From positions 17,046 to 81,045 of the forward strand of contig JBBTUH010000028.1 of NCBI GenBank assembly GCA_038063875.1: a stretch of DNA of 64,000 nucleotides, read 5' to 3'. The notes beneath the pieces were generated by a model that saw only the letters and a program-made list of their open reading frames with translations, was not told where the DNA came from and made no database searches. Shown piece after piece: positions 4,847 through 53,100 of this stretch (position 1 is the stretch's first letter; each line of letters begins with the position of its first letter). The DNA is from Patescibacteria group bacterium (lineage in GTDB: Bacteria > Patescibacteriota > Microgenomatia > UBA10105 > UBA927). A program made the translations under genes and the position numbers.

Positions 4847-4848
4847 AG

Positions 4849-6411: not shown

Positions 6412-6425
6412 AGTTATTATTCTAT

Positions 6426-7555: not shown

Positions 7556-7560
7556 AAAAT

Positions 7561-9886: not shown

Positions 9887-9929
9887 GAGCGTATGATATA
9901 CTAAAACACAAGAAAAATTACGCGAACCC

Positions 9930-9958
9930 TTGAAATCCTATAGTAAATCTGTTATACT
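9930..9958 (+). promoter_or_regulatory. Sigma70-like promoter (TTGAAA-17 nt-TATACT) driving a leaderless transcript of the 9965/9968 ORF
   Basis: The -35 hexamer TTGAAA (9930-9935), a 17-nt spacer and the -10 hexamer TATACT (9953-9958) are present. The ATG at 9968 is only ~10 nt downstream, with no room for an SD. Confidence 0.45.
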
Positions 9959-9964
9959 CTATTA

Positions 9965-10759: not shown

Positions 10760-10801
10760 ACTCTTCTGGTCGCCACGCTTTGTATTTCGTATGATAGTCT
10801 C

Positions 10802-32100: not shown

Positions 32101-35100
32101 TAAATCCAAACGCTGTTACAGAATCTATAGGTCTACCCGTCAACCATTCAAAACGTAATCTAGCATTTACCATCGGATCATTCTGATTTCCATCGCTTAC
32201 GATGGGAAATAAAATATTTTGTTGAAACGTTATCCCAGCAGGGTCTTTTGGCAACAGTTTACCCATAGCGTCATTAATTTGAGATCCGTCTGCCATAAAA
32301 AACTTACGAGAAAGCGCTATGAATGAAAATTCACCTGTTTGAGTGTTAAGAAACACAATGATATTTTGATCGTTCTTAGTCGACGTAATTGGAATATTTG
32401 GATCCTCGTCACCTATGCTGTTTAAATGAGAATCCATGCCTAAAATAAGGAATGAAACTATTGGGTTTTCAAATACTGCTTTTTTTTGTTCATCTGTCGG
32501 ATTTGCTACTCCTACTATTCGTAGCCAAAAAGATTCTCCTTCAAGGTTTGCTAGTAGAACCCGTTGATTTACTGCCCATCTATAAATTCCTTTTGACATG
32601 AATGCAACAAGTGGATTTTTTGCAGACTGTGAATCTATCCAATCCTGTTGTATGGACTCTTCATACTGATCTTGTTGCGTCGTTGTTGCAGTTTCTGTGG
32701 GTAACTGTGCTGTAGCAGTATCTACAGGAGCAGACGTTTCAGAGGGCGATGCTGTTTCTGGATTCGTTTGAATTTGCTGGATTATCGCAGCTGGCTCCCT
32801 TATCGGCAGTTGAGGTGTCGGAGAAAAAGCGACGTTTAGCCAAATCACCACACTCAACAAGCCGTACGCTATAGATAGCACGCCAATCGTGACACCTGCA
32901 GTCCATTTCAATCCGTCTCCCACCCACTGAAGCCATGTTTTTTTATATGGATCTTTGGTGAGATTCATCGTTACCACATCTGTATTATCTGGAAACGTTA
33001 TAACAAGGTTTGTCGTTTGCTTTTTTACCGTATCTAAATTAAATCGAACAGCTCTGCTGCCCACTTGAGCAGTATCCAACGATACCGCTGTCGCCACGGC
33101 ACGTTCCTCTACTCGCTCAATTTGATAAAGAGCAAATCGTGAAATATCATGCACGATAACGGGGACAAACAAAGGATTACCGGTCACAAAAAGAATGCCT
33201 CGAGTAAAGATATGTATAAACCCTTGGACAAATCTGAAGTTTGTTGGAACAGATGCGTCCCACCAGTTTGGAAAAAGTACAAAATCGCGAGACGTCCGTA
33301 CGATCGCCTTAAGCGAATCTGATGGAATTATCTGCTCAACTAGACGCAGTCCATCATGTGCAATCCACGGCAGTATTCCTATCGGTCCTCCGCGAATCCA
33401 CATCCATCCATCACGCAGTGCCATAATGCCAAGGTTGGCAGCCTGCTTCGTACCACTATACTCGAATGAAAATGGCTTTACCCATGCATGTACTAAGCCA
33501 ACCACTCCATCGCGAACAACTCGTGTCGGTCCCCACTTTCCTAACGATGCGAAAAATCCTGGCTTAGCAAGTCGTGTCTCTTTTTCTCCTGTGGTAATTA
33601 TGATGTTTCTCCTCTCTTCACTGGTCACTTGAATCTTTGGTGCTACATCAAGATAAAATCTCGCTCGTTCTATATCTATCTTTATGTTATCGGTAATTGC
33701 CTCCGGACCATCAACTGATTCAAACACACTAATCAATCGGCTATATTCTACCTCCAACGGCTTACCATTTACTTGCAAACGAATATCTGGACTGGATTTT
33801 TTTAATTGTCGAAGCAACACCGATATTTCTCCCACAAGTGTTTGTTTTTCCACTTTTGCTACTTCTAATCTAGCGTTTGCAATGAGAGCGCGGGCGACTA
33901 TCATATCTAATTCATAAGATAATGATACTGACGCTCCATTCACCTGACGGGCAACTTCAGGAAAAATTGTCTCGCTCACTAATTCTGCCTCCACGAATTC
34001 CGCTAATGCTTCATCATCTGAATACCCAGAGATTGCCTGCGTTAATCGTTCGTGAAGAATGATATATTGATCTGCGCCTAATAGTAAAACTTGCTCAAAT
34101 CTTTCCGCTGCAGCCAAGATGTCTGTAAGGTTGGCTGTTTGAATAAAATATACCAATGGTGAAGTATCACGTGTATCAAATTGTTTTATGAAAGGCACAA
34201 ATACAGATATGGTCTCTAGTCTCCCGAGTGTTATTTCCACTTGTTTGTTTATAGAATTCTCTCTCTGTTTACTCGTCATCGACGAATCAATGACAGATCG
34301 CACCGCCTCATCTATTCTTGATCGAATTATTGATCTCAATGCCACTCTTGCAATACCCGCTATTTGGAAACTACCCGGCTTATCAAATAACAAGAGCTCA
34401 CTGGCATCTCGTAAGAGTGTGATATCTGTCAAAAGCACACCGCTTGTTTTAACCAGCTCTTCATACCATTTTTGTCGAGCATCTTCTTTTTGCTTTTGGG
34501 CGATGAGCGAATTTTGAGTTTCGTTCAGTCGTCTCGCAAGCCCGCGAATTGCGCTTGCCCGCTCTACTTCTGACTGCTCGGTAAACCAATCGCCAAGTCG
34601 TGCATGAAGTAATGTTTCGAGTCCTTGGGTATCAAGAGTTTCTTTTTCAATTAATGTATCGACTATAAATTCAGTCTGTTCGCTATACCAACGACGATAT
34701 GCATCAACTACTCCATCAATTGCTTTTTTATCTATATTCAATATGTTTTGCGCGCGGTTTTGAAGAAATACTGAAGGTAACAGGGAAATACCATCAAACC
34801 ACCCGTCATCACGAAGTTTTCGTTTAATAAGGTTAAATGACACACGATCATTGCGATATAAGGCTTCCTCAACCAGATTTTGCCTATATACGTCAGCCAC
34901 TTGAGCGTCCCATTGGGTCAGTTCTTCCATCGCTCTTTCGGTCACTAATCGCGCATACGCAGGAATGAAAGATGATGCTTGCTCGTCAGATTCAAGTCGT
35001 TGATCTTCCTCTAGTACAGTTCTCACGATTTTCTCAATTTTTGACTTCATAGTGCTCACGCTATCCCCTATAATTACCGTAGCCATGACTCGCTTTTGTA

Positions 35101-38100
35101 TTTCTGTAAGATTATTTGTAAACACGTGTGCAATAAAAAGCTTTGCCTGCGTTCGCTCTTCTTTTTTATTTGTGAGTTGGGCCACAACTTCACCCAAAAC
35201 AAAACTCAAATACTGCTGTGCTTCTGCAACGCCACTTATTTGCTCAAACCCATGATTAAACGCCGCATTTTCGGCTATATCCCTTTCAGCAAAAGACTGT
35301 TTGATATCAGCCTGTAATTGAACGCGCACAGCTTCTCGATCGTTCAAATACATTTCATACTGTAGTGCCAAAGCGATTCCTTTTTCTGGACCAAGGACAG
35401 ACTCCATAATTTCTCCAGTTCTTTGGGGAATCACTGCTCGTGCTGCTTGTGGTTGATCTTTTACATCACCAAGCCACGTTTCTATACTTTTATACATCTC
35501 GTTTATAAATTCTTTGTCACTCATCCCGCGAGCTAATAGAATATCATCAGAGGTGATTCCCTCTTCTTTCAGTCTCTGTCGAAGCAATAAACTAATTTCA
35601 CTTTTCTTTGCTCCATTTAAATACGCCTGAACAACTGGTCCATCCCGATGCGTAGCAAAAAGCAAAAAGTCCGCAGTGCGAACACGCAATGCATCTTGTA
35701 TGACAGGTAGAGATTCTAACAATCCCGTGATCAACAGCTGCCTATGCGCTGTACGCCATGCGGCTTTTGATTCTTCTGATTCTAATTTTGCAATGAATGC
35801 AGTGGATTCTTCTCTCGCCAGTTGTTTTTGTCGCAATTTTAGTAATTCAGCAGCTTTTATTTGCGATTCTGTAAGTGGTACGGTGATTGGCTTATCTACA
35901 TAAAATAACCCTAATCCATAGGCTGTAAGAGCTGGTTCTCCGAGATCCATCATGAAAGAAGCCTCATCCATCACTTTCTGTACTTCACCAAACATGTTCC
36001 ACAATGCAATTGGAGGGACTAACGCCGGTGTCAAAGCTTCACCTGCAACTGCAGTAAGAAGCAATACTTGTGGGTTTGATATGGATTGATTCGCTTTTCT
36101 CACTTCTGCCGCACGTTTTTCAATACTAGGAGCTAACTCAGCAGCTTGTTTTACTGCGGCAATTTCTAATACTGCCCTACGATCCTGTTCTGCCCTCAAC
36201 TGTTCGAGTTGCAACGCTAATTGTTTTTCAGCGTCTAACGACGTAGTAATTGCGCTTATGTCCAATCGTGCTTGATCAGAGACTGATGCTTGATCAAACA
36301 AACGTTCTTCCGATTGCCCAATTTTTGCTGTAACAGACCGGAGTAATTTACCAACCTGCCTATCTAGTTGAAGCTGCAAAACAGTTTCAAATGCCAAAAA
36401 TGCTTCGGAAATTGCTTCTATTTTTTCCACAGTCTTAATGCGATCAAGTGCTTTATCTTTTAACAACACATCTAGCTCTTCAAGAAGTGACAATGGTGTT
36501 TCACGCGTCACTGTTAATCCTGCTGTATTTAAGGCATTTTTGAGCGTTCTTGTAGCTACACGTGATGTATTTGATAAAGGGAAAAAAGAAATGCGCGCAG
36601 CAAGAGACTGCAACCCTTGCACGAGTGGCGATATTTGTGCCCTACGTTCTGCTATTTGTTGTCGAAGTTCCTCTCGATGAACAGATCGTTTTTCTGCTGC
36701 CCTCAATTTCTTTTCTTCATCTACAATTTTTTGCAATCGTGCCTGTTCTTGCGCGTCTACCTTACTAACTCGCAACTGTTCAGAAGCATCTTGTGTGGCA
36801 AAAAATGCATCTACTTTCTGTTGCAATGCTTCATCTTCCTTTTCCATCTGTGCCAATCGCTCTGTAGCATACGTTTGACGCGCTTTCTCAATGACTTCCT
36901 GTCTCCACTCAGGATAATCTCTTTTGGCATCGACAAATAACGTGGCGCTAATATTTCTTCTTTTATCAACTAACATTGCATCAATACGAGCTTGTAGTTG
37001 TTCTTCTGATCCACCAAAGACTATTAACTTATGTAAAGCGGAATTAGTCACAAATATATTTTTCAACGTTCCTAGTTGCATAAGTGCGGTAAGCTGACGA
37101 ATCTGGCTTCCCGTTTGAATACTTCGCGACACACCACTACTAAATGGCAAAGTTAGTTCAACGACAGGACCAACAACTGGCGTGACACCAGTTAATAACG
37201 AACGTCCGACTAATTGAGGAGTTGTAATGGAACTATCAACCTCATCCAATGCTTTAAATACTGCAGCTACTGAACGGCTCCAGCTTGCCATATCTTTATA
37301 CACTTGGTCTTCAGAATCTCGCCGCTGAGTTTGTGCTTTTTTGATATCATTTGCATATGTTTTATTGAGCGTCTGCGTTGTGCCACTAATCCAATCTGAT
37401 TTTTTTAGATTAAGAAGCGCAAATATCTCATCGGTCACATTATTTTTGTCTAAAACACCTTGAATAGTCGTTTGTACAACTTGTTCAGAGTACCCACCAA
37501 CGATTGCATTCTTTACATATTCATCTTTCAAAATAACGCTTTGTACTGTGGTCAATAATATATTTGCGTCTATTTGTCGAATTCTCTCAGCTTCTTCCAC
37601 CTTCTGTTGTTCTCCAATATCTGTAACCAACGCATCTATCGCAATCCGTTTTTTTTGAGCAACCTGTGCTTGCTCCCTCGTTAATCGATCCGCTTCACGC
37701 GCAACGGATTGTTGAGCAACTTCACGCAGTCTCCTTGCTACTCTCAAATCTTGTAGCTTTTTTCTTGTATTTACGTATGCAGTAAATTGTCGAATTCGTG
37801 GAAAACCAGTCACTACTGATGAAGGCACGACTACTGGAATCAACGCATCTTGTATCACATCTAAACGACCACCTACGCGCAATTCATTACCCGTGAGCCA
37901 AATCGCCTGAGAGAAATTTCCCAAATATTCAGTGATTAAGGCAAATGGGCTTGACGCCCCACCACCCGGTGCGTCACCACTTTTTCTCATCAACAAATAC
38001 TGTGCTATATCTGCAACAATTTGGTTATAGGAATCTGTCGTTATACTTTTAAAATTTGGACTAAACTTAGTGAGGGTGTTTTCTATTTCTGTACGATGGG

Positions 38101-41100
38101 TCTTGAGGAAATCTGCTTCAGACACTCCTTCCCTCACCCACTCAGAGCTTGATTTCTCCAATGCCTTCAATGCAAGCTGTTCTTGGGTAAGCACTGTAGG
38201 TATTTGATCTGTATTGACAGTGATTGATATGATTGTCCGAGCGTAGACCTTAAGGAGCTCCTCAACCAAATTATTGTCAATTGCTTGAACAAGGTGTGGC
38301 GAAACGTGATCTTCATTCCACGTTGCGTTTTGAGTTAATGCTCGGATGATCTCTGCAGAATCTGATGGCACATTCGTCAAATCTCCAGCTGTAAGAGTAG
38401 CAAGCACTCGAGCAACAATCTGTTTCTCCGTAGCACTTGTTAACCCAACAATATTTGCAAATTGATCCAAAATTTTCTGCACCTCTATTTTCGCCGAAAC
38501 GGGTATAGATTCTCCCTCACTCCATACATTATATTTTCTCAAAAACAAAACGAATGCATTGATGCGATCTGTAATAGAATCTAAAATGACTCTGTCCGTT
38601 TCTCTATACTGCAAATCTTTCGGTGCTACTGCGTTGTAGTTTGTTATGGTTCGTAGTAATAATGCTGTCGTCGAATCAGCTTCAGTCGCACTTACTGATA
38701 CAGCATTTACATCTTGTTGGACTTGATAGATGGTCTGTAGCATTGGATCAATGAGGGTCGTACGCAATGAACTTCGAACATTAGCTGCTACTTGTGCGGC
38801 GGTTGACAATCTCACGGCAAGATCAGCGTTGGAATTTTCATCGCCTATAAGTAAAAAGGTTATATACTGCTCTAGCTTCGTGAACTTTTTATCTGCGGCA
38901 AATAGATCAAAAAATTCTATTAATTTTGCTTCGCTCATCGGGAGATCACCGTTATTTTTTATCAACGCTCTTAACTTTTCGCTAATTGTCTTGACTGCTT
39001 TTTCTGCTTGCGCATCGATTTTATCAAGATCAGTAATAGATTTGCGCCCTCTTACAAGCAATGTATCGACAAATGTCGATGCAAAGTCTGTAAGCTTTTT
39101 TTGTGTTCTCCCTGGTGCATTGGTATCTCCACTCTCTATCGATCTTACCCATGATGCAAATACGGTATCAATAGAAAATAATTTCTTTAACGTCCCAAAC
39201 GCTGTGAACTCTTTTCCATCTTCAGTAAACCATGCTGTGCGTACTACATCTGCTTGAATGTCTAAGATTGATTTCTTCGGCGCATTTTTAGCTGCAAGAA
39301 GCGCTATAATTTCACCATCTGGATCTTTATAGATAAATGGTTTTTCCTCTCCTATCCGGATATATAGTTGCCAGTCTTCGAGCGTGAATGCGCGTATTTT
39401 TTGCAATCCATTCTTTATCGACTCAAATAACTCAATAAAATCTTCTTTGGTCAACGGAACTTCATCTGTCGTTTGCTTTATACGAATGCTTCCTTTTTGT
39501 ATAGCCTCTTCCCGCCATATAACAGCCTGAAGCAATAGATCTACATACTCCTGTTGCGTCGAAGGGACGAGGAACGGAACCTCTGACGAATTTATAGGCT
39601 CTTTATTGAATAACGCTGGTGTCACCTCTATCGTCTCATTATATTTATCTTGATAAAGCCGTAAAAACTCATATACCGTCATCATCCGAGCCATTGCAAC
39701 AGAAGAAAGCTGTTTACTTTTGTAGTCGTATGGTAAATATAAGTCAAACTGTGGGCGATCCAATATCACAGTGAAAAGTAAAGAAAAGTAACCAACAGTA
39801 TACCTTCGTATCTCATCTACTGAAAGTTTAGGTCGATATTTATATGACCCATGATCAAATAACATAAATGTATATGTCCCATCATCTTTTTTCACCAACA
39901 TAAGGTTATGTCCATAAATTAACTCAACATCATCAATGTACATATGATTCTTTGATAATTTCTCAATAAAATTGATATACAATGGGGCAAGCTCTGCCGG
40001 TGGTAAAGCTTCATATATCGCTCCAAACTCTACCCCTACCACCAATGGAGCAATATAAAATAAATGTGACGGAGATACATATGACACGGGGTTAACCAGT
40101 CTCGATTGAACAGCGTCTTCTGGTAATCTTCGATATTCTGCTAACCCTAAATAGTCTCCAACTGGCTTAACAATAAATCGCTCTAGATTTGACCTATTTG
40201 TTAACTCATATACTATTCGAGAATTATCTTCAGCATTCGGCAACGCCCGAATTACCCATGTGTCATCCAAAATTGTGCTTACAATTTTTCCTGACTGAAT
40301 ATATTCGTATATTTTATTGTCTGAATCGATCGATAAATCGATTGTATTTATGCTTAATTGAGTAGCTTTATAATGCGAATATAACGCCTTCATAACCCGC
40401 TCTGTTATCAATGTCAGATTCGCCGATTGCAACTTAAATGATGCTAATTTCAAATACTTTTGAACCACTACGGTGTAGCTCAACATAAACTCTACTTCTG
40501 TCGTTGGCGCCTCATGTCCGGCAAGAACTGACTGTGGATCAACCCATATCTTGGTCATATCGTTAATAAGCCCTATTACACTTCCCTGACTTATATCTCC
40601 AAGCAACAATGCTTGCACAAACCCAGTCAGATATTCCAATGCGCCATCCGTATTCTTATCTATAGCTGCTTTCAAATCAGTAAGGGGCTTTTGTACCTCT
40701 GACTGATTTAGTGCGTTTATTACTGCGTCATACGTTGCGACTGGAATAACCACTCCTTTAAATGCCAGCTCGATTGCCTTAATCAATGGCGCCTGAAACT
40801 CAGGCTTTAAACTATCCGGCGTCAACTTGCCCGCGATGTATTGGTTTGATTTTTCTTGCACTTTTTTATGCAACTGCTCCTGTGAAATGGGTGGCTGATT
40901 TGATTTACCAATATCCGAATATAAGCCAACTTCTTTCGCCAAACTCAACCATGCGATAATATCCGCTTCTATACTCTTAATCTTCTTTAATCCATCAGTA
41001 TCAGCTGGTAACTTCGACGTATCAAAAACTTTAAACATAGTATTTGCTTTACTCGCGTTAATCAATTCATCTTCATTGTCCTTTGTGTCTGCAAGAATAT

Positions 41101-44100
41101 ACTTTTGCCCTACCCAAAACTTTAACGATAATGGGGTTTCGTTTTCAAGAACGCCTAAACCCCCAAATTTCTGCTCAATAACTACCTTTTCTATAATTGC
41201 CAAAACCTTCGGCCCGAACCCTTTCCCAGGATCTGTTGCATCAAGTTTACTTATGACGGGAATCACGGATAACCCACTTTGGCCTAACAAGACAGGAATT
41301 AATGTGTGATTTAGCGCATCAGACACAAACGGGTCTGGCTTAAGAAAAACGATTTCTATCTTATCAAGCAGCGATGAGGATCCATCCATAACAAGGCCCA
41401 CACCGCGTGAGGTTTTCTGTAGAGAAACTCTGATCCCATTGGTTTCTTTATTGCTATCAAATTCCTTATTGAGAGCATCTCTGATCGCCTCAACTTTATC
41501 TTGTTCGACGAAAGCTACTTCTTTATCCAAAGGCACAGCTTGTTTATTTTCCAACCCATCAACATATTTTTGAGCTTCTATGATCTTATCGTCATATATT
41601 TCTCTAAGCGTTGGGATAGTATAACCGCTAAGAGTATTCACGACCTTGGCCCCAAGTCTCTCCAAGACAGCCAAAACAGGGTTTGTTGACAACGTTTCTG
41701 TTTGTTTCAAAACGTCGACTAATGCTTCAAGCTCAGTTTGTGGATCATCCGCAATCTTCATCTTCATGATCGCGTCAAAGTCCGATAGATACATGGTGTT
41801 TATAAAGCTACCTACCGCATCGATAACCTCTTTATTTTCCACAGGCTTCTTTGACGCCTTTACTAATTCGTTTGCCAGTTTAAGACGGTCGTCATTTGAA
41901 GCCTTGCTATATCTTTTCGCCTCATCAGGTTTATTGAGTATCCGCATGATCTGCGCCAATTTTTGATTAGCAAAGTAGGCGGCAGTGCTAAAGAGCATTT
42001 CATTACCATCTTTTTTCTCCGCGTGTTTTTCTCGATCTGCCTCAACCATCGCAAGAATAGTTTCAAGATCACCCTTTGCGTCTTCGTGACGACCTTGCGA
42101 GAGCGCTTTTGCTATATTCGTAAACAAATCAATAAATTGATCTTTTAGTTTTAAACAATCATCACAAGCCTTCGGATTTGCACGCGCAGTTTCGGTTAAC
42201 GCACTTGAGAGATCCTGAAATTCTGTTGTTACGTTTATGCCAAGGTTCTCAACTTCTTGCTCTACAAATTCATCGCCTGCGCTCAATAATGCGACGGGAA
42301 CAACTCCGGATTGTAATACACTATCTGCTCGTTTCAGAGCTTCTAGCTCATTGGTAAAGAAGAAGTTAGCATCTATCACATCTTCCATTTGTCCAATGAT
42401 GGGGAGAATCACATCTGCAGAGGCGCGGGTCGCAGGCGCAGTCCCGCCGTAATTCGTTATACCGCCTGTTACAGCTGCTATGACGCCATCTACAGTCGTA
42501 GGTTTTGTGTCGGATATAGCTAATCCTGTTTCTTGCAACTCTAAAAGCAAGGGCAAAAGCTTCGCCACTTTATCCGGCTGTTCTTCAAGTGGTATTTCAA
42601 TCGCTTCTTGAAAAACTTCAACCCGCTCTTTTACCCGCGCTCCAAACGATTGTTTCTCTTTTTCTACATCAGCATTTACTGTTTTTAGCCCATCGAGCGC
42701 AAATTCAAGCTGACCTTGTATTTTAATCGCTGTATCACGATTGATAATCGCATCGATGCTCACTAAAAAGCTCTGATCAGAAAGTGCTGTAAATATTCCA
42801 TCCAACGTTGTCGCTTTTGGAACAAATTGAACCCCTGCTTTTTCAAGCGATGACGATAATAGTTGTACAAGAAACGCGACTTTTTCTTTTCCAAGTGTTC
42901 CTTCTACATAGGATCGCTCAGCCCTAAGAAGCTCGATAGGAAACTGCAGAAGGAGTGATTTAATGATGCTAATTTCTTCAATGACTGGAGCTGGTTTTAG
43001 ATTGACGGCGTTGCCAACCGACGTCACGCTGGCTTGTTGAGCAACTTTTTCTGCAATCCTTGCTGCCACATTTATCGCCACCCGTGTCGCAGCCTCCTTG
43101 GATTGTGTTGTCAAAGATTTTCCTGTTGTTATAGCTTGAGCTATATACGTCGCAAGTTCAGCTCGGGCTGCTGCAATACTTCCTGGCAACCGATCTTTTT
43201 GATCCTTCAATAATGCGTTGAATTTCTCAACTAATGTTGCTTCCTGTTTCTCTGCCTCTGCCTGTAGAGCTGATTCATCAACCACAACATTAACAGTCGC
43301 TGGGGTTATTGTCGTAGAACTTGTTGTAGGATCTATTGCAACACGATCATCAGTGACTTTACTTCGTGCATCCTCAAGAACCAAAGCAATGCGCGTAAAC
43401 ACATCAGACGCTTCAATTGTCATTCGCACGAATCCCGCTGGGGGCAGGGCACTTAAGAACGTGGTTTGTAACTGCTCAAGCAGTACCACATCAGCTTGTG
43501 TATGTTCAATTATATTGCTGATAAGGGCTGAAAATGCTTGACCAAGCTTCACCTGATCTAAAAGATATTCTTGAAGCAATACAAAATTTGTGACGTTAAA
43601 TCCTTGCGCTATAAGCTTTTGAAGAATATCGCCTATCTCTTGTTGTCTCTCTACAACTGTTTTCGCTAACCCCAACTCAGATTCAGCTTGTTGTAATTTT
43701 ACCTTTGTCTCTTCAAGACTCGTGGTATTTATTGCCAAACTTGTTTCTACTTGTGTTATTTGTGTATCCAACGTATTCGATTCGAGGTTAGAAGCATTCT
43801 GTTGTGCGTTGGAAAGACGCGTAACTACAACCGCTTGTCTTGCTTGAAGTACTTGGAGTTGTGCTTGTACTTTCCGTGCTAATTGCAATGAATTATCAAG
43901 CTCTGTTTGTTTTTGTGTAAGCTCTACCGTATTTTCCTGAAACTTTCCGAATGACTTACCTACGACAATGACACCTGCTGAAATATTATCAACCTTTCCT
44001 CCCGCCTTTTTAACCTTTGCATCAGCTAATGCACGAACTTGAGACACAATTTCCTGCGCGATCTCTTTTCCATTCGTCTTACCCTTTGTCACATCTACAA

Positions 44101-47100
44101 AAAACCCTCCAGGAACCCCTGTTTTGTTTGCAAAGTTTCTATTATTATATATTTTGTTATGCCATCGAAGTGGATCGATGACGCCATCACTTACGGAAAT
44201 TAATACATCACCTTCCTGAACCTCAAAGGATTCTCTTACAACATGCGACAAATTTTCATTATTTCCCTGTAGGGCTCCATATACAACGTTACTCATTGGA
44301 TGCTCACCGGCTTCTTTTACCGTAACTTCGCCCATCTCAAGTAATTCACCCACAATTGAATGATCTTTCATTAACAAAAAGGCTGTACCATTTCGAACAA
44401 CCCATGTTTCTGCGTCTCCTGTGTGAATCACATGCGCTATTTGTTTTCCGTTTACCTCTTCTAGAATTGTGATATCGACAACCGCGCCACCACCAGCAAG
44501 ATCTGCGTTTCGTATTTCCTGATTAAGCCTATCAAATGTTTCATATAACCGAGATTGAATATCGATACGTCCATTTGAGGGTATTGAGATTTCATTAAAA
44601 TATATTTCTGCCACACGATTTTTAATGATCTGTGCAGCTACCGCACCTGATCCTTTCGATCCCATACCACCCATACCGTCAACCTCTACCATCATCACGG
44701 ATCCAAAAGCCGTAATTCCTGTTACATTGCGAACGACCAGCGCCGCATCCTCCATTGGATTAGCATTTTTTAGATACTTAGTACCTTTGTCTTCAGCGAT
44801 TCCAATATCACTTGAGGGAGCCACCGCTGGAATTTGTGATTGTAATGTCGCAATGGACGCCCGCAAGGCAATATGTTGCTGTCCAATTCCCTGTAATAGT
44901 CGCTTCTGCTCGTCGACAACTCTTGTAATATCAGCCAATTCCTTTGTGAAATTAGACACTTCTTCATTGGCTTTTTGTATAGCTTGTGGAAGTGATTCTT
45001 TTTTATACGTCTCTAACTCTTCGCGTCTTGTGTTTGCTTCGACAACCAGTCGCTCGTACTCAACCTGTTTACGCTTCAAATCATCGATGGTGTTTTGCAA
45101 CACAACAAGACCATCAGCTTGTGTTTGTTGTGCAAGGGGTTCAGTAACATACACAATGCTCACACCAGCAACTGGAACCTTCAAATACTGATCGCCACCA
45201 TCTAACTTTACGATCCAATATAGTAATCCTCCATCACTAAGCCCACCAGATTCATTTTCATTACTTTTTACGGTAGCCCTTGTAGTAGTAGTAACACCAT
45301 CCGCTGTGTACGTCACCTCAACTTTAGCATCCACCTCCACTGGATTATTTGCCTGCATCGAAATATTCGTCGCACCAGCTATGTATTTATATCCTGAAAC
45401 GGGCGCAGTTTGTACTACGGGTGCAATTATTTTTTCTTTGTAGACTGTATACGAACCATCCGTATTTCTAGAAAATAATATCTTTTTGTTTCCAAATTGA
45501 TAGGTAGTTTGATCTACTGGAATATCTATTGATGTACTTTTTACCACAGGGTTATCTTGTGCATCCACCACCCCATCTGCGTCAATAACAAGGTTTAATG
45601 ATTCAATATCGTTTACATTTTTTAAATTCACATGTGCATATTGCGTAGTGATGCCAGTTTGATTATTCGCAAAAACTATCTCTCCGGATACAGTAAGCCC
45701 AAAATAGACAGTCTGATTCCCCGAGATTACACCCATCAGTTCATAGATAGCCAGATCCACAGATGTTACGGGGACTGTGACTGGTGCAACAGGAATCGGC
45801 GCGACTTGTTGTGCCACAATAGATGAGGTCACATGATCTGCAAGTTTGTAGGATCGAACGCGGGCGAAATATTTCAACGGTGATTCTGGCCAATGAAGAT
45901 CCCAATACAAAAATCGTAATCGTCCTTGCGATGCGTTCAGGAAATTTGGTGTTTTATAGCCATCACTCAAAAACCTATGCACATCGTATGCCCACAACGA
46001 ATGTGAGATGGTGGAGAGAGGGAATGGTGTGAGAAACAATCCGACGCGTGTCAGCGCCCACACCACCGTATTGTTTCGTGGTGTCGCATTGAGAATACTT
46101 CGTGGAATAAACGAATAGAGATACCCATCGAGACTCCATTCATTAGGCTCTGTGATCGGAAGATCACTCAAAGGTGAGCGATACGGTACGGTAGGCGTAC
46201 TATTTGCCCGCATCACCGCGCTTTGCACCATCCTCATGCCCAACATGTGAGGAGCGGTAAAGAATCGTGTAACTGATGTCACTGTCTGCCAAAATCTATT
46301 GCCCAATGATGTGTTTGTATCACCGAGCGCTAAAAATCGTGCATTATAATAATGCTCCCAAAATCCTTCACGACTTCCCGCAAGAATATTAATCACCGTT
46401 GGCCGCATCAACACGGATTTCCACAGGCCACGCCATATACTGGGATTGGTGTCACTTAAGACGGTAATAATTCGCTCACCCAATATAAAATCTCTGGCAA
46501 GGGGTGTGCGCATGAGTGCATTGGCCAGTGCTACCACTGGAGCACGAACAGGCCATGTCACAAAACGAGCGATATCCCAGCCCCATGTGGCCGTTACATA
46601 GTACCCTGCCGCCAACGGATTGACGAGCCCAATACCAAATGGCACAGCCACCCGAAGCGTGGTCCACACCGCCAATTGTCCTGCACGTTCAGAGAGTGGC
46701 AATGAGCGATTAAAAACAGCAAAGGGGTTGGGACTTATGAGCCAATGTTTGACCATATCCCAACGCTGACTGAGTGTGAGACTTGCAGGAATTTGCGGTT
46801 GTGATTGTGCTACTTGCCCAGTAATAACCTGTGCTATTTGCTCTGGGGTGACATTTCGCGCATCGGCAAGTATAGAACCAATCACGTTTGTTATCGTTTG
46901 ATTCGGATCAGATAAATTAGCTATCGCAATAAGTAGCTTTTGCACACTACCCGTTGTCGTCTGATCGTATGCATTACTTATGACGCCACTCTCCATTTGT
47001 TCAAGAAGCGTCACCGTAATATTTGCCGCAGCCAACCCTAACGCAGCTGTTACATCAGGCGTTGGATTCGTAATTCCCAATGCTTGGGTCAACTGTTGTT

Positions 47101-50100
47101 GTATGTGTGCTTCAAGTGCTGTGTGAATCGTGTTAAATGATAATTTTGCTTGTTCCATAGCTGCCGCACGTTGTTCTAATTCTTGTAGTTTTTGTGGCGC
47201 TATCACGGTCGCTACATTCGGTCGATAAATGGTGGCAGTCGACAAATTAATTACATTTCTGTTTCGTTGTATAAATGCTTGTTCTGTACTCCCATTTCGT
47301 ATCGATAACCCTTGTGGAAATAACAATACTGCACTATTTGATGGATCATACTTTAGAGTCGAACTATCAGCTCCGCGTGAAAAGAATACGTCAGTAGAGT
47401 TTGCTCTAAAAGCATATGCAAAATCTGCCGGATTATCGATCCGTAAATTATAGGTATTTCCATCTGATGCAACATAACGAACCACATCCCCTGTTTTTAA
47501 CCCATCTGTTATGTTTACAATGCTGAGCGCTTGATATCCTGTTCCTGTCACAGACTCATTTTTCATTGCAGATGCCCGCGCAAGTACCGCTATATTTAAG
47601 CTCTGTTCTGCTTTTACCAGTGCAGCAAGAAGTACGGCTGGGGCAGCAAGGGTGTTACTGGTTGGACTTACTATTGCACCCTGTGGGACAGGCTGATCTA
47701 TGGGTATTTTGGGCACTTGTGCCCGTGACGGGACAAATTTTACTAGATCTTGAGGCTTCAAAATTGTGGGTATAAATGCTTGTCGAAATGCTTGCCAATT
47801 TTTGGCGATAAACTGTCCAAAGACTAGGGCTCTACTTGGTTGTGTCGCATTTGTAGCTTGCTGTAGTCGTGTTTGCTGATATGCAAGTACTTTTTGTAAC
47901 GGTGCCTCTTCAAGGCTGGCGATCAGTGGCGCCGTGATAGCCTGACTCATCTCTTCTACAAGCGCTTTTTTGTGCTCTACATCTCTCACTTTATCTAAAG
48001 CACCATCAGAAAACGTTACTATTTGCCCTATGTTCGCCTCCATCGCGATACGCAAATCAGATTGTGCATTTTGCAATGCTTTATTCTTAAATATCACACC
48101 GGAAGCAAGCAATATTTGATCTAGTGCTTTGATAAGCGTTTCTTTCTCTCCTTTTGTTTGATCTAAAATAGTCGCCTTGGCTTGATCACTCTGCGCATTC
48201 GTACCCATGAGCCCAACTTGACGCGACACTGCATTTTCATACGTAACCATGGCTGCCGCTGCGATATTGAGCCCTGCTACAGATAATTGATTAATATTTT
48301 GTATACCAGATTTTGTCAGTGAGGATTTTATGCGCTTGATTGCGTCCGCTTTCAGCGCATCTGTGATTTGCGCATCTGTACTATTTGCTATGGGTGCAAG
48401 AATGGTCTCAATTTGAGCTATTTGTGTATTCAATTGTTCTAATTCAGGTGAATCTGGCAGAGCTAAAGATTTCTGAACTATAAACGTCTGCTGTCGCACG
48501 ACTAGCCTCGATCGCTCTTGTTGGGCAAGGGAGAGTATGTGTCGTTCTTCTGGGGTTATAGATTTGCCTGAGATTGCTTTCTCCATCACCGTTTTCGCTT
48601 GACCTATCGCATCTACAGCGACTTTTGTAGACTCCACACTTCGTGCCGCAGCTGCTCGTTCTAGCTGCGCAATTTGCTCACGCGTGGATGTTTGTGGTGT
48701 TTGCCGACCCTCACGGCCTATGGTAGCTGCGATATCTGACTCAAATATCGCTTTGTTTATAAGTGCTGTTCTATCTGTAATGCGTGTCGCTCCCTGCAAA
48801 CTTGGCCGCACAGTGGACTCCGTGGGTGATCCAGCTTGAAGCGCTATTGGGACATCTTCATAGTTATAAATATTTTTTAGATAATACTCACGCACTTGTA
48901 TAGGTAATTTTGTAAATTCGGGGGTCGAGCGAATGCTGTTTATAAAATCGCGGGTCCGTGTAGCTGCTTTTTGAATAGCGACTGTACCTACTTGGGACGA
49001 TTCCGTAAGTGCATCGTTTACTCCTCCCACCTTGTCAAACTGCAACTTTAATCCATCAGAAAGAGACATTTCTCTTCCTTCATAATTCATCGTAAAGTCT
49101 TCCCCACCATATTGCTTCACCATTTTAGCCAATGAATCAATCGTATTTTTGACCATGTCAGAGTACCCATGGATCAAACTATTCGTAATTGAAATTTGTG
49201 TGCTGGCTGTTTCATTGGCAAGAAGTCGACTCCCTGCCTCCTCCAAAGCAATTGGTGTTAAACCATCTGCGGCTTGTCCATCAAGAAGATACACAGTGGT
49301 TTTTTCAGGTATTTCTCGAAACCTTCCAATACCTTGTGCGGCTGATGTTTGTGTGAGCGTTTTCGAGCTTCCAAAAAGATACGATGCGTCAGAGGGTGTG
49401 AATACACCTTGAATATCGGTCCCTCTTCCAGACCCTTGATCAAAAATCATGACAAACTTCTTGCCTGCTCTATTTTTATACGCGTATTCTTCTTCAAATC
49501 GCTGTATTGCCGTTTTTTCATTGTCCCCAATAATAGTTCTTTTTATTTTTCCATCCTGATCATAAAAAACTACTTTTTCATTTTCCGCAATATTTGTATC
49601 ATTATTTATTACGATCATTTCTACATCATCACCTAATGCGTTTGTCTTTTTTCGAAGACTTTGCAAGGTTATTTCTTTTGAATAATCTGGCATCTCGAGT
49701 ACAATTCGAGCGACACCCTCTGTACCTAATTCAATATTCGCATTGTCTACATCTTTTGCCCCAAACCATTCCGAATACTTAACGGGTTTTGTACTCTCTG
49801 AGCCAAAAATCTGAATAATAGATGTGAGTTTTTTTACTCCCGGAACGACAAGTTGCATATCAAGCGATAATTGAGCATCCAAAATAATGCTCTCTGGAGT
49901 ACCGGTAAATCCATACAGTCTATCTGCATAATGTCCCGTTCCAAGAGTCTGTTTCCATGATGAAGATTCTCCCTGAAGGGATACCGTGACCTGATCGATA
50001 AAGGCATTCGCTTGATCATGGGTAAAAGGCTTATTGCGCAATGAATTTTTTATCATTTGGCCAACAGTATCAAGTGCTAGTGCTTCATAGAGCGCTTGTG

Positions 50101-53100
50101 GCCGAGTATTTTGAAGCCTCCCTGTCCCGTCGCCGTACACCAATATGCCTTTCGGATCGAATCCATATCCACTTGTTGATCTACTTGATTGCTCCACAAT
50201 AGCATTTACTACTCCCGCTCTATCACTAAATTCTCCTTTAAATTCGCTTGAAGCTTCGTTTCCTTGATGATATTTTTCAAGTGCGGCTATCACCTCTCGT
50301 GAATTTGTCCGAGGATTTCCTGCCTCGTCATGGGTAATAGCATTCTTCTGCAAAAATTCTTCTACTGTTTGTGTGTCTCCTTGCGCCCTCGTCTTTTCAA
50401 ATGCTTGCCTTGCTGCTTCTAGGACTAAATCTTTGTACAATCCTTTTGCCAAATCTGTATCTGCAAGGGAGACGCTTTGTCCTTTTTGTACAAAAAGATC
50501 CTCTCCTATAGATCCTCCATTTTTCACGGTGCTCGCCTTTTCTATGAAATTTTTCGCTAAATCAGAATTAAATACGTCTCGATATTTTTGCGTTCGTATG
50601 GGATCATAGTCAGCTGCCAATCGTGAATCACCGCCGGAAGAAAACTGCATGCTATTTGCGATCACATCAAACTCGTCGATAAGAAGCATGGCTCCTTTTG
50701 TCCCCTCTCGAAACCCTTGCGTGAGAAGATCAGCATTTCTAGAGGCATGAAACTCATAAGGGGTCTCCAGCGTCGGGCTGTAAATGATGTCTGCATCGGA
50801 AAGTATTTGTTTGGCAAGTACATCATTTTGCCCATTGGTGATCTTATGAATACCTTCCGCATCGGCATAAATAATTTCTCTTCCCGAAGGATTGTAATAC
50901 ACTGCCTTTACACCGTTTTTATGGTGTACTAAAGGACTGTAGTCTTTCATCATACCCAAAACATCAGCCCACGAAGTAGCAAGAACGTTTACTTTCGCAC
51001 CGGTGAGCTTTACTTTTGCATCAGCAATTGCATTAAGAAGAAATGCAGATTTTCCTAAACCCGTCTGCCCGTTAAACAAAACACCTTTGACTGAACCAGA
51101 TATTTCCGTATCAAACAATGCTTTAATAAAAATTTCTGACTGATCTACTCGGGTCAAATGATCAGGCCCAATCATTTCGGAAATTCTTTCCTCTGTGGCT
51201 GTCGATAAATTTTCTTCTATTTTCTTTAAAAAGCTCGATGCTTCTTCAAGCATTTGTCTCGCTGCTTCTGTAGGCGGCCTACCGACGCCTGATTCTTTTG
51301 CCTGATTATCAATCAACTCTAGCTGTTTCTGCGCATTTCGCTCAATATGAAACCCTTCATTCTTCATCACATCTGCAACAACTGATAACTTACCAAGCGT
51401 GTTTGCTATCGCAACTTGCTTTTCAATCGATATTTCCTTCGGTCCAAACCACTTATATCTAAGGCTTGATGTATACGTCTTATCTTTTGCGTTTGCGATT
51501 GCCAACGCCTCATCGGCTTTCACCGTCAGTTCTTTTATCGCTTTATCAAAGGACTCAATATCTTTTGTTTGTTCAGTGGTTGGAGCTCCTCCTGCCTTTT
51601 CTACCAATGCACGTCTATTGGCAACAGCATCAGTCACCAAAGTAAGTGCGTCTGTATACTCAAGTCGCGCAGTATATACTGCCTCACGAACAGATTTCCC
51701 TGTTATAGCATCACTTATTGCTTCTCGAATCGGCTTCGTCGCCAAATCAAATCTTCCTCGCAACGAGCCTGCCTTAGCCAGCTCTGCCTGTTTTGCTATA
51801 ACCTCTCCACGTATCTTTGCACTGTTTTGTGACAATGATTGCATTTCTTGTGATTTATTATTTGCTGCAGCTACAGATCGCTCAGCTATACCTTTTGCAA
51901 ATATTCCATCCGCTTCAAGTTTGTTGAGCGATTCAAGCGCTTCCTTCGTGCGCGCGAGCATGCGTTCCGTTTCTTTAATTACTGATTCTGGCTGATTTGC
52001 ACGCGCTTTTAATTCTGCCAAATAGTCACTTGTTGCTTTGAGTGTTTTTTCATATGTTTCTTTCACCTTTGGCAACTGCGATGGATCCTTAATCACTTCA
52101 TTTTCTATAAGAATTTGGGTTTGTTTGGCTTCCACGTCGACAAGTCCATCCTTTCCTTCTTTGCCATACTGCAATTCTCGAATAGCTTGTGAGATCGTTC
52201 GCTCAATCGGTGTTTTCCGCGCTTCTATGGCAAGAGCTTTTGTAAGTTCTGTCGCTTGCAGTGCCGCAAGATATTTAGAAGACGTATTGCCCTCGGTACT
52301 TGCTATAGCTGAAAGTTCTTTGGCAGCGAGTCTATATGCCGCGAGTTCTTTCGTTTCTCTACCCGTCAATCTATCAAGAAGCGACCGATCAGGAGCACTC
52401 AGCGCTACTTTTTCCGCATTGTAACTCTGCTCTGCTGCTCGCACTGCCAATCGTGCTGATTCAACTTTTTGTATTGCCAACACTTGCTCAACCGGCACGA
52501 GCAACCCTGCTTGATTTTCAGTTTCACCCGTAGAAATAGTTCTCTTTACTACACCATCCGCATCTACAAATCGTTTTAAGACCTCCAAACTTTCCAAAAG
52601 GTTTTTGCCCACGACGGTTTGTTTGGCACTCGAATCATTCGCAAGCTGTTTTGAGAGCTCGAGCAGTTGATACGTCTCCCGCGCGACCGCATTTGTCGTA
52701 ATTCCGAGCCTGTTATTCACTTCAGACTGCATGCTCAATCTCGTCGCGTCTGTTATTTCAATTCCACCTATTGTTAATTTCTGGCCATTTTTCCAATTAA
52801 CAAGCGCTACCTTGTCCGCTATCGCTTGTGCCTGCTCAATATAGGGATTTTCTATAGTAGTAGGTTTACCAACGGCTTGTGTCTGTGCCAACTGCCCCTT
52901 AGAAAGCCCCGCCATCATGATAGTCGTTGCACATTGCTCAAACGGTACGCTTCCCGCAGCCGCTGCCGCACACGCGACTGCAGCTTGCCCGGTGTTTGTG
53001 TATAAATCCAAGCGTCCGATCGCTGTATTTGTCGTTTGCGAAATTATTGGTGACCCTTTTGGAACAAGGCTTGCAAGCCCTGTCACCGCTCGAGCACCCA

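What the first reader, a model, noticed from the sequence alone, without database searches (positions are those of the whole stretch)
43946..44743. Canonical PP2C/SpoIIE-type Ser/Thr phosphatase domain inside the megaprotein (approx. residues 4195-4460)
'MMVEVDGMGGMGSKGSGAVAAQ' is the PP2C motif-1/2 (DGxGG metal-binding). '...HVIHTGDAETWVVRNG...LMKDHSIVGELL' is the GDSR/DHS core. 'LISVSDGVIDPL' is the D...SDG motif, and the terminal '...DNISAGVIVVG' is DNiTvivv. All hallmark motifs of PPM phosphatases are present in the correct order.
Basis: seen in the sequence. Interest (0 to 1): 0.7.

Follow-up and report, generated by a model that had tools for sequence, protein, structure and literature searches.

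The report
Divergent PP2C phosphatase domain in giant protein
The flagged stretch is a real PP2C-type serine/threonine phosphatase domain, of an unusual sub-type that standard Pfam models miss, sitting in the middle of a 13,399-residue membrane protein of a groundwater CPR bacterium; the domain is an ordinary kind, but it is the only clear functional clue to this giant protein.

Summary
Confirmed. Window 43946-44743 on the minus strand reads exactly as quoted, in frame with one 13,399-aa ORF (17126-57325, minus).

Evidence for a PPM/PP2C domain:
- phmmer against PDB hits Stp1, PstP and tPphA at about 4e-11.
- NCBIfam Stp1_PP2C_phos scores E 9e-19.
- A sub-family profile hits PstP at 3e-21.
- All metal-binding Asp residues (ED, DGMGG, GD, SDG, DN) and the flap are kept.

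"Canonical" overstates it:
Only SpoIIE appears, at 17 bits against a cut-off of 25.
- GDSR is GDAE, and the motif-I Arg is missing.
- SDG-to-DN spacing is about 25 residues longer than usual.
- Motif I lies upstream of the given start, so the true domain is 43946-44815.

The closest relatives (35-49% identity) share these quirks. All are very large proteins from CPR or Omnitrophota MAGs, and one locus is stop-free across 6,908 codons.

The source is a Gottesmanbacteria-like bacterium from Hainich groundwater. I infer, without proof, that the domain faces the cytoplasm as in PstP. It is a new member of a known family, of moderate interest.

The parts
43946..44815 (-). PPM/PP2C phosphatase domain, residues 4171-4460 of the giant protein
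44747..44752 (-). Motif I Glu-Asp (E4192-D4193, 'NPMED'), aligned with the canonical NED metal-site residues.
   Evidence: MAFFT alignment with 67 ordinary PP2Cs: D is 99% conserved at this column. In the model it sits immediately before strand beta-2. The sub-family signature is GTKYxK[RN]xxPMEDA.
44774..44785 (-). 'GTKY' (4181-4184). Tyr4184 aligns with the canonical phosphate-binding Arg of motif I.
   Evidence: The column is R in 96% of ordinary PP2Cs and Y in the three relatives that cover this column. The L082 relative has GQKYDHQED, with Y at the canonical -5 position.
44666..44680 (-). Motif II DGMGG (D4216-G4220), the bridging metal ligand Asp plus the Gly carbonyl
   Evidence: These columns are invariant in the 67 ordinary PP2Cs.
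44408..44419 (-). GDAE (4303-4306) in place of canonical GDSR. The Asp, the third-metal ligand in PstP and tPphA, is kept.
   Evidence: GDSR is present in 261 of 270 ordinary PP2Cs and in 0 of 5 sub-family members.
44357..44365 (-). DHS motif at the start of the flap. DHS-to-HP spacing is 19 residues, as in every aligned PP2C.
44183..44191 (-). SDG motif (D4380, metal ligand)
   Evidence: D and G are invariant columns.
44051..44179 (-). Sub-family-specific expansion between SDG and the last helix (IDPLRWHNK...PGGFFV...)
   Evidence: SDG-to-DN spacing is 65 residues here and 63-83 in relatives, against a median of 38 (range 18-40) in ordinary PP2Cs. This part of the model has lower confidence, pLDDT 70-77.
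43985..43990 (-). DN motif (D4446-N4447), the last metal ligand
   Evidence: 99% conserved columns.
17126..57325 (-). Giant ORF of 13,399 aa that contains the domain
   Evidence: The same 13,399-aa gene is called on an independent ENA contig that is 100% identical over 16 kb. There are no internal repeats. The only matches to solved structures fall in the PP2C region.
57131..57193 (-). N-terminal hydrophobic helix (residues 45-65), a signal anchor
   Evidence: Kyte-Doolittle mean 2.42. It is followed by paired-Cys, Pro/Thr-rich sequence.
53582..53668 (-). Weakly hydrophobic uncharged segment (residues 1220-1248). Candidate membrane crossing. Inferred only.
   Evidence: It lies in a block (1148-1434) that aligns with P0004 816-1056, which contains P0004's only strong TM helix.
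32831..32899 (-). Second strong TM helix (residues 8143-8165)
   Evidence: Kyte-Doolittle mean 2.21. There are 4 K/R before it and 1 after, and a Pro/Ser/Thr-rich linker follows. It resembles the TM plus linker that follows the PP2C domain in L082.
31850..32149 (-). LytR_cpsA_psr (LCP)-like segment, residues 8393-8492
   Evidence: Pfam PF03816 at 30.4 bits (cut-off 24.6), E 5e-7. Not corroborated further.

Best explanation
Residues 4171-4460 of the 13,399-aa protein form a metal-dependent (Mn2+/Mg2+) PPM/PP2C phosphoserine/phosphothreonine phosphatase module. It is of the bacterial Stp1/PstP/tPphA type, a beta-sandwich with a flap.

Shown here:
- The fold is PPM.
- It is homologous to bacterial PP2C phosphatases.
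- Every metal-binding Asp is retained (D4193, D4216, D4304, D4380, D4446, plus the G4217 carbonyl position).
- It belongs to a small divergent clade. The clade has GxKY instead of GxxR, no GDSR, and a 25-45-residue expansion before the last helix. It occurs in very large multidomain proteins of CPR and Omnitrophota bacteria and escapes Pfam.

Inferred:
- The module is catalytically active. A water bridged by two metals would attack the phosphate of a phospho-Ser/Thr protein.
- It faces the cytoplasm, as in M. tuberculosis PstP. The proposed layout is: N-terminal signal anchor, then an extracellular paired-Cys region (about 66-1200), then a weak membrane crossing near 1220-1248. A long cytoplasmic helical region carrying the PP2C module follows, then TM2 (8143-8165), then an extracellular C-terminal part with an LCP-like cell-wall enzyme segment.
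- In this reading the domain links Ser/Thr phospho-signalling inside the cell to envelope-acting modules outside it. The substrates are unknown.
For: Identity:
- phmmer against PDB: Stp1 2pk0, PstP 1txo/2cm1 and tPphA at 4e-11 to 2e-8.
- NCBIfam Stp1_PP2C_phos at E 9.3e-19.
- A profile of the clade hits PstP at 3e-21. It also retrieves 762 proteins at E<=1e-8; all 120 listed carry PF13672 and PF00481, and most also PF07228.

Active site:
- All near-invariant Asp and Gly columns are kept in the query and in relatives at 35-49% identity.
- DHS-to-HP flap spacing is identical to the family.

Clade and context:
- Top hits are P0004 (2,632 aa, E 2e-78), P0005 (3,008 aa) and P0006 (1,254-aa fragment).
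- L082 carries the same type of PP2C in a frame open across the whole 20.7-kb locus, at least 6,908 aa.

Cytoplasmic side:
- P0005 and P0006 have FHA domains just after the PP2C. P0005 also has a SAM methyltransferase and a cNMP-binding domain.
- In L082 the PP2C is followed directly by a strong TM, an acidic Pro-rich linker and a GDSL/SGNH hydrolase.
- In the window protein, TM2 has a Lys-rich N-flank and a P/S/T-rich C-flank followed by an LCP hit.
- Closely spaced Cys pairs (about 3-20 residues apart) occur at 114-1465 and again at 8843/8864 and 11516/11534, with a wider pair at 12401/12473. None occurs around the PP2C.
- From established knowledge (Pullen et al. 2004), PstP has the same PP2C-TM-ectodomain layout.
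Against: - Pfam's PP2C models do not reach threshold.
- The phosphate-binding Arg of motif I is not identifiable. It aligns with Tyr4184, and the KR pair of the relatives is KN here.
- GDSR is GDAE.
- Topology: only two strong hydrophobic helices exist, at 45-65 and 8143-8165. The simplest two-TM reading would therefore put the PP2C on the same side as the extracellular-looking N-terminal region.
- The proposed third crossing (1220-1248) has a Kyte-Doolittle mean of only 1.22.
- The LCP assignment rests on a single Pfam hit. No homologues were found and the single-sequence AF2 model failed.
- No kinase or FHA domain was detected in this protein.
Confidence: 0.7

Rival explanations
1. The PP2C module is extracytoplasmic. 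It would be displayed on, or released from, a giant surface-anchored protein of an episymbiotic CPR cell, and would act on phosphoproteins of a host or neighbouring cell as a contact-dependent effector.
For: - Only two strong TM helices exist.
- The sequence after TM1 has paired cysteines and Pro/Thr linkers. The relative P0004 starts with a classical signal peptide followed by Cys-loop sequence.
- No strong hydrophobic helix separates that region from the PP2C.
- CPR bacteria are commonly episymbionts (established knowledge).
Against: - This reading would place the Lys-rich flank of TM2 outside. It would place the P/S/T linker, the LCP-like segment and later Cys pairs inside, against the positive-inside rule and against the usual location of LCP enzymes.
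- Clade members P0005 and P0006 pair the domain with FHA, cNMP-binding and methyltransferase domains, which are cytoplasmic.
- L082 has a PstP-like PP2C-TM-linker-hydrolase order.
- P0004 has a strong TM (about residue 857) between its secreted N-terminal part and its PP2C.
Confidence: 0.2
2. It is a pseudophosphatase: a PPM fold kept as a scaffold or phospho-protein docking module without catalysis, as in TAB1.
For: - The motif-I Arg is absent, GDSR is GDAE, MGTT is GGAV, and the His after DGMGG is Met.
- The sub-family falls below Pfam thresholds.
Against: - All metal-binding Asp residues are retained in the query and its relatives despite only 35-49% identity. The single exception is the third-metal Asp, which is Asn in P0005.
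- By my recollection, not checked here, TAB1 has lost most of these residues.
- The flap spacing is intact.
Confidence: 0.1
3. It is a PPM-fold hydrolase with a substrate other than pSer/pThr, for example removal of AMP or phosphocholine from proteins (as SidD and Lem3 do), or hydrolysis of a phosphorylated envelope polymer.
For: - Both conserved Arg residues of ordinary PP2Cs (motif I and GDSR) are replaced throughout the clade.
- There is a clade-specific insertion in the SDG-to-DN segment of the fold.
- The same protein carries envelope-enzyme-like modules.
Confidence: 0.05

Closest known systems
PstP (Rv0018c) of Mycobacterium tuberculosis, PDB 1txo/2cm1
   Same: - Same metal-ligand set, including the third-metal Asp, and the same flap.
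- PstP is a membrane protein with a cytoplasmic PP2C, one TM and an ectodomain (established knowledge). That order is seen literally in the relative L082 and proposed for this protein.
   Different: - PstP is 514 aa, with the PP2C at its N-terminus. Here the domain is internal to a 13,399-aa chain, about 3,680 residues upstream of the TM.
- The motif-I Arg and GDSR are not conserved.
- There are about 25 extra residues between SDG and DN.
- Identity is only about 20%.
Stp1/IreP/PrpC family (NCBIfam NF033484), tPphA, MspP, and PppA of the P. aeruginosa T6SS
   Same: - HMM match at E 9.3e-19.
- PppA works with an FHA protein, and clade members P0005 and P0006 carry FHA domains next to the PP2C.
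   Different: - The score of 67.8 bits is far below the equivalog cut-off of 230, so it is not an Stp1/IreP orthologue.
- Those enzymes are 230-270-aa stand-alone proteins.
MDO8487840.1 (P0004), annotated 'SpoIIE family protein phosphatase [bacterium]', with HAZ11122.1 (Omnitrophota) and MBI4066417.1 (Gottesmanbacteria)
   Same: - True clade-mates at 36-49% identity over the domain.
- They share GTKYxKRxEPMEDA, TW after GDxx, DPLRWHN and PGGFFV.
- P0004 also shares the downstream helical stretch and the A/G-rich hydrophobic block.
   Different: - They are 1.2-3.3 kaa rather than 13.4 kaa, with different partner domains (FHA, methyltransferase, cNMP-binding, Hint).
- P0004 and P0005 keep an Arg (KR) where this protein has KN.
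Giant multidomain proteins of Omnitrophota and Actinobacteria (West-Roberts et al. 2023, bioRxiv 10.1101/2023.11.21.568195)
   Same: That paper lists serine/threonine phosphatase domains among the domains shared by giant bacterial proteins. This protein is likewise non-repetitive, and one clade-mate is from Omnitrophota.
   Different: This one comes from a CPR (Gottesmanbacteria-like) genome. I found no paper describing giant proteins of that group. It has far fewer recognisable domains.
SpoIIE / RsbU / RsbX group of PPM phosphatases
   Same: Same superfamily. The only Pfam model that responds at all is PF07228.
   Different: - The query has the flap motifs (DHS...HP..N) with family-typical spacing. 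By my recollection of published bacterial PPM classifications, not checked here, the SpoIIE/RsbU group lacks these motifs.

Membership tests
PPM / PP2C superfamily | PPM fold: a central beta-sandwich flanked by helices | tested here: met
   [not shown]
PPM / PP2C superfamily | Significant sequence or profile homology to characterised PP2C phosphatases | tested here: met
   phmmer against PDB 4e-11. Profile against PDB 3e-21. NCBIfam NF033484 E 9.3e-19. 7,910 library hits at E<=1e-3.
   Only PF07228 responds, at 16.8-17.4 bits against a cut-off of 25. PF00481 and PF13672 are not reported at E<=10. Most of the clade behaves the same way, with isolated L082 segments just clearing PF00481. This is a model-sensitivity failure, not evidence against homology.
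PPM / PP2C superfamily | Metal-binding acidic residues: motif I (E)D, motif II DGxGG, SDG and DN | tested here: met
   D4193, D4216/G4217, D4380 and D4446 occupy the 99-100% conserved columns. The judgement is by alignment. The geometry in the model could not be inspected.
PPM / PP2C superfamily | Phosphate-binding Arg of motif I (R33 in PP2C-alpha, R20 in PstP) | tested here: not met
   The column is R in 96% of ordinary PP2Cs and Y4184 here. The nearby KR of P0004 and P0005 is KN here. Lys4183 or Lys4186 might substitute; this is unresolved.
PPM / PP2C superfamily | Mn2+/Mg2+-dependent phospho-Ser/Thr hydrolase activity | not testable with these tools
   Needs an enzyme assay.
Bacterial Stp1/PstP/PrpC-type PP2C (with flap) | Flap motifs (DHS ... 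HP.xN) and the third-metal Asp in GD | tested here: met
   DHS 4321-4323, HP 4342-4343 with 19-residue spacing as in all aligned PP2Cs, and D4304 kept.
Bacterial Stp1/PstP/PrpC-type PP2C (with flap) | GDSR and MGTT second-shell motifs | tested here: not met
   GDAE and GGAV here. GDSR is present in 261 of 270 ordinary PP2Cs and 0 of 5 clade members.
Stp1/IreP equivalog (NF033484) | Score at or above the curated equivalog cut-off (230 bits) | tested here: not met
   67.8 bits.
SpoIIE family (PF07228) | Pfam gathering score, and closest fold neighbours being SpoIIE or Rsb proteins | tested here: not met
   [not shown]
PstP-like membrane phosphatase architecture | Cytoplasmic PP2C, TM helix, extracytoplasmic domain | tested here: inconclusive
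   The order is seen in relative L082. In the window protein it is compatible with the TM2 flanks and the LCP hit, but it needs an unproven weak membrane crossing near residues 1220-1248.

The most novel reading that the evidence does not exclude
The PP2C module belongs to a clade that has replaced both conserved Arg residues of ordinary PP2Cs. It may be exposed outside the cell on a 13,399-residue, non-repetitive surface protein of an episymbiotic CPR bacterium. There it would act on a partner cell's phosphoproteins, or on a non-canonical phospho-substrate. That would make it a contact-dependent PPM effector built into a giant protein.
Probability: 0.15. Interest if true: 0.75.

Novelty: new member of a known kind. 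Interest (0 to 1): 0.4.

Why it matters
The 40-kb gene would be about 4% of a roughly 1-Mb genome. That genome size is assumed: CPR genomes are typically that small, and the largest related MAG contigs recovered are 0.95-1.6 Mb. The gene is almost entirely unrecognisable. No other part of the 13,399 residues matches any solved structure by sequence, and Pfam finds only one further segment. The PP2C module is therefore the best experimental entry point to the protein: it is a small, foldable and assayable domain.

It also points to a Pfam-invisible PP2C clade that recurs in very large proteins of CPR and Omnitrophota. This suggests that Ser/Thr phospho-signalling is built into these giant envelope-associated proteins. 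For phosphatase biology the domain itself is not surprising. NCBI already labels its nearest relative a SpoIIE-family phosphatase, and phosphatase domains in giant bacterial proteins have been noted before.

Tried and rejected
- **Pfam on the domain.** I ran the domain on its own, with flanks, and as whole-protein chunks. The PP2C region gave only a sub-threshold SpoIIE hit. This is not a refutation, because other HMMs and the fold agree.
- **Genome collection scan with the PP2C region.** No relative was found.
- **First word-indexed protein search.** Only 3 hits. The profile search returned only ordinary PP2Cs and no clade-mates.
- **LCP-like segment.** No homologues were found and the single-sequence AF2 model was useless, with pLDDT 36. 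The topology argument therefore could not be strengthened.
- **afdb50 fold library.** Not available.
- **Partner domains inside the giant protein.** Pfam found no kinase or FHA domain. BLAST with the FHA-bearing relatives matched only the PP2C region.
- **Internal repeats.** None by self-BLAST, so a repeat-adhesin reading of the giant protein is rejected.
- **Literature.** Searches for giant proteins of Gottesmanbacteria or Patescibacteria found nothing relevant.
- **HMMER's ungapped placement of PstP 'NED'.** HMMER placed it on query 'VTG'. I considered this and rejected it in favour of MED, for three reasons: clade conservation, the MAFFT alignment, and the position of strand beta-2 in the model.
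- **Chance similarity.** Rejected on E-values.

Full report
**Observation**

The plus-strand frame of 43946-44743 is full of stops. It lies in frame inside one ORF, 17126-57325 (minus), of 13,399 codons, at residues 4195-4460 as stated. The antisense ORF 44625-45191 (+) has no family match and is treated as a by-product of the long ORF.

**Is it a PP2C domain?**

Pfam gives only PF07228 (SpoIIE), at 16.8-17.4 bits against a cut-off of 25, over 40 residues around SDG. PF00481 and PF13672 do not appear even at E<=10. All other evidence is positive:

- phmmer against every PDB chain returns only bacterial PP2C phosphatases: Stp1 2pk0, PstP 1txo/2cm1, tPphA, PppA and MspP, at E 4e-11 to 2e-5.
- NCBIfam's Stp1_PP2C_phos model scores 67.8 bits, E 9.3e-19.
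- An exhaustive phmmer scan of 1.84 billion representatives gives 7,910 hits at E<=1e-3. Apart from the top three, those listed are almost all PP2C-sized or modestly larger proteins at about 30% identity.
- A four-sequence profile of the domain and its closest relatives retrieves 762 proteins at E<=1e-8. All 120 listed carry PF13672 and PF00481, and most also PF07228. The same profile hits PstP at 3e-21.
- An AlphaFold2 model built on a 71-sequence alignment has mean pLDDT 91.3 and pTM 0.91.

The domain is a PPM-fold protein, closest to the flap-bearing Stp1/PstP/tPphA group rather than to SpoIIE.

**Anatomy and boundaries**

The model is ordered from residue 4173 to 4454. In the alignment with 67 ordinary PP2Cs, D4193 falls on the 99%-conserved Asp of 'NED', directly before strand beta-2 of the model. 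HMMER's local alignments instead slide PstP 'NED' onto 'VTG' without gaps. I reject that placement because PMED is invariant in the three clade-mates that cover this region (QED in L082), and because the 23-residue spacing from ED to DG is within the family range of 11-37. The domain is therefore residues 4171-4460, window 43946-44815.

Conserved catalytic positions that are kept:

- D4193 (motif I)
- D4216 and G4217 (DGMGG)
- D4304 (GD, the third-metal ligand in PstP and tPphA)
- D4321-H4322 (DHS)
- D4380 (SDG)
- D4446-N4447 (DN)

The flap spacing from DHS to HP is exactly 19 residues, as in every aligned PP2C.

Departures from the canonical pattern:

- The motif-I Arg column (R in 96% of ordinary PP2Cs) is Tyr4184.
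- GDSR is GDAE. GDSR is present in 261 of 270 ordinary PP2Cs and 0 of 5 clade members.
- MGTT is GGAV, and DGMGGH is DGMGGM.
- The loop before motif I has 12 residues against a median of 8.
- SDG-to-DN spacing is 65 residues against a median of 38 and a range of 18-40.

These second-shell differences probably explain why the Pfam models fail.

**A distinct clade in very large proteins**

The three best library hits are far above the rest:

- **P0004:** 2,632 aa, E 2e-78, 44% identity.
- **P0005:** 3,008 aa, E 6e-43.
- **P0006:** 1,254-aa fragment, E 6e-26.

They share the signature AE[DN]xGTKYxK[RN]xxPMEDA ... E[AV]DGMG ... HxG[DN]xxTW ... SDGxxDP..W ... PGG[FL][FL]V ... [VI]DNIS.

Source annotations:

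- MDO8487840.1, 'SpoIIE family protein phosphatase [bacterium]'
- HAZ11122.1, hypothetical protein, Candidatus Omnitrophota
- MBI4066417.1, 'FHA domain-containing protein, partial', Candidatus Gottesmanbacteria

A metagenome scan with the clade profile found L082 (contig Ga0233437_1000873). One frame there is open across the entire 20.7-kb locus, giving at least 6,908 aa with a PP2C at 35% identity. It also found L081, the P0005 gene. Pfam misses or barely touches the PP2C in most of these, at 21 bits or less. Only isolated L082 segments just clear PF00481, at 21.1-23.4 bits against a cut-off of 20.3.

Partner domains:

- P0005 has FHA, a SAM methyltransferase and a cNMP-binding domain.
- P0006 has two FHA stretches and a Hint/intein segment.
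- L082 has a GDSL/SGNH hydrolase after a TM helix.
- P0004 sits between rplA and rplJ in its MAG.

**Host protein and organism**

The neighbouring genes are chromosomal: Rho, a LysM-M23 peptidase, DUF2298, glycosyltransferases, YfhO-like proteins and PIN toxins. Rho is 85% identical to one mislabelled MAG and 55-77% identical to many Candidatus Gottesmanbacteria, Levybacteria and other Patescibacteria MAGs. The window is therefore from a Gottesmanbacteria-like CPR bacterium.

The exact M23 protein occurs on 23 contigs, the listed ones mostly from Hainich groundwater assemblies. One of them (ERZ1292625, 94,730 bp) is 100% identical to the window over 16 kb and carries the same 13,399-aa gene call. 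An H52 variant is 99.4% identical. The giant ORF is thus reproducible and not an assembly artefact.

The protein has no internal repeats. No part outside the PP2C region matches a solved structure. It has one further Pfam hit, LytR_cpsA_psr at residues 8393-8492, 30.4 bits, E 5e-7. The domain is flanked on both sides by Q/E/L/K-rich sequence that looks helical, judging from the sequence itself.

**Which side of the membrane? (inference)**

There are two strong hydrophobic helices, at 45-65 and 8143-8165. After TM1 come Pro/Thr linkers and cysteines in closely spaced pairs, 3-20 residues apart, up to residue 1465. There are no cysteines from 1466 to 5053. Pairs reappear at 8843/8864 and 11516/11534, with a wider pair at 12401/12473. 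P0004 begins with a classical signal peptide followed by similar Cys-loop sequence. The N-terminal region therefore looks extracellular.

TM2 has 4 K/R in its N-flank against 1 in its C-flank. It is followed by a P/S/T-rich linker and the LCP-like segment, which is the usual layout of an extracellular tethered envelope enzyme. TM2 plus its linker also resembles the TM plus linker that directly follows the PP2C in L082. There an acidic Pro-rich linker and an SGNH hydrolase follow. The local alignment score is 61, against 32.5 +/- 5.7 for shuffles.

Both ends look extracellular, and the clade's partner domains (FHA, cNMP-binding, methyltransferase) are cytoplasmic. The most coherent model therefore needs one more crossing. 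The block 1148-1434 aligns with P0004 816-1056 (E 7e-5), which contains P0004's only strong TM at about residue 857. The equivalent uncharged segment here is 1220-1248, with a Kyte-Doolittle mean of 1.22.

Under this model the PP2C is cytoplasmic, as in PstP. I put about 60% on this, about 20-25% on an extracytoplasmic PP2C, and the rest on processing or other arrangements.

**Mechanism**

Shown: a PPM fold with a complete set of metal ligands, conserved across a clade at 35-49% identity. The single exception is the third-metal Asp, which is Asn in P0005.

Inferred from established PPM enzymology: two or three Mn2+/Mg2+ ions held by D4193, D4216, D4380 and D4446 (plus D4304) activate a bridging water, which attacks a phospho-Ser/Thr.

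Unknown: the substrate, and which residue replaces the phosphate-binding Arg (Lys4183, Lys4186 or Tyr4184).

**Comparison with what is known, and novelty**

The domain is a member of the PPM superfamily by fold, homology and metal ligands. It is not an Stp1/IreP equivalog (67.8 bits against 230) and not a SpoIIE-family member by Pfam. NCBI's pipeline already calls its nearest relative a SpoIIE-family phosphatase. West-Roberts et al. 2023 list Ser/Thr phosphatase domains among those shared by giant bacterial proteins. I found no paper on giant proteins of Gottesmanbacteria or Patescibacteria.

Verdict: a new member of a known kind, belonging to a divergent, Pfam-invisible clade. Interest is moderate (0.4), mainly because the domain is the only clear functional handle on a 13,399-residue CPR protein.

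Noticed in passing
window 17126-57325 (-): The 13,399-aa protein has no internal repeats (self-BLAST at E<=1e-5 finds none). Only two regions are recognisable to any library, unlike repeat-built giant adhesins. It is reproducible across independent Hainich groundwater assemblies.
   Followed up: partly
window ~52930-56985 (-), residues 114-1465; also residues 8843/8864, 11516/11534, 12401/12473; CxxC at 5054/5057: Cysteines are rare (35 in 13,399 residues). Most occur in closely spaced pairs, about 3-20 residues apart, confined to the N-terminal 1,465 residues and to the part after the second TM helix. The 3,600 residues around the PP2C have none.
   Followed up: partly
window ~53024-53884 (-), residues 1148-1434: An Ala/Gly/Ser/Thr-rich, weakly hydrophobic block is homologous to P0004 816-1056 (E 7e-5), which holds that protein's only strong TM helix. 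L082 has a Gly-rich counterpart (IVGGVAGGGVGGVASAVAF). This could be a membrane-crossing or membrane-inserting region.
   Followed up: partly
window 32780-32899 (-), residues 8143-8182; L082 protein residues 3650-3700: The second TM helix and the linker after it (FSPTPQLPIREPAAII) resemble the TM and linker after the PP2C of the L082 giant protein (FSSPSVSTPIQEPTAVI). The local score is 61, against 32.5 +/- 5.7 for shuffles. It may be a conserved anchoring or processing element.
   Followed up: partly
window 31850-32149 (-), residues 8393-8492: An LytR_cpsA_psr (LCP) family hit (30.4 bits, above the Pfam cut-off) lies about 230 residues after TM2. No homologues were found by protein search, and the single-sequence structure prediction failed.
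   Followed up: partly
L084 (ENA ERZ1292621, Hain_H52_02um_R3_48): A 99.4%-identical population variant has the giant gene called at 10,054 aa instead of 13,399. It also has a divergent ~560-bp patch matching window ~52318-52902. This could be a truncating variant or an assembly difference.
   Followed up: no
L001 6865-7218 (CAYIBX010000002.1): The closest genome by Rho (85% identity) has a homologous gene start (54% identity to residues 3-119) at the same position downstream of Rho. A syntenic giant gene probably exists there, but the rest of the contig could not be fetched.
   Followed up: no
L088 8001-15899 (JAUSIY010000012.1): The closest PP2C relative, P0004 (2,632 aa, with a signal peptide), is inserted between rplA and rplJ in the secE-nusG-rplKAJL cluster. 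It is preceded by a small fn3-like protein.
   Followed up: no
window 7561-7983 (-), 16351-16746 (-), 14685-15869 (+), 15963-16283 (+): Just downstream of the giant gene's 3' end and further along are two PIN-domain ORFs, a DUF4143/AAA_14 ATPase and a nucleotidyltransferase (Polbeta/NTP_transf_2). This is typical toxin-antitoxin or mobile clutter.
   Followed up: no
window 1-14667: A cluster of envelope glycan genes: a DegT aminotransferase, GT2, GNAT, two YfhO-like membrane proteins, a methyltransferase, an RmlC-like epimerase, and a protein with a weak (below cut-off) GT87-like hit that ends in an NPCBM domain. A LysM-M23 peptidase lies immediately upstream of the giant gene. The neighbourhood is dominated by cell-envelope functions.
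   Followed up: no
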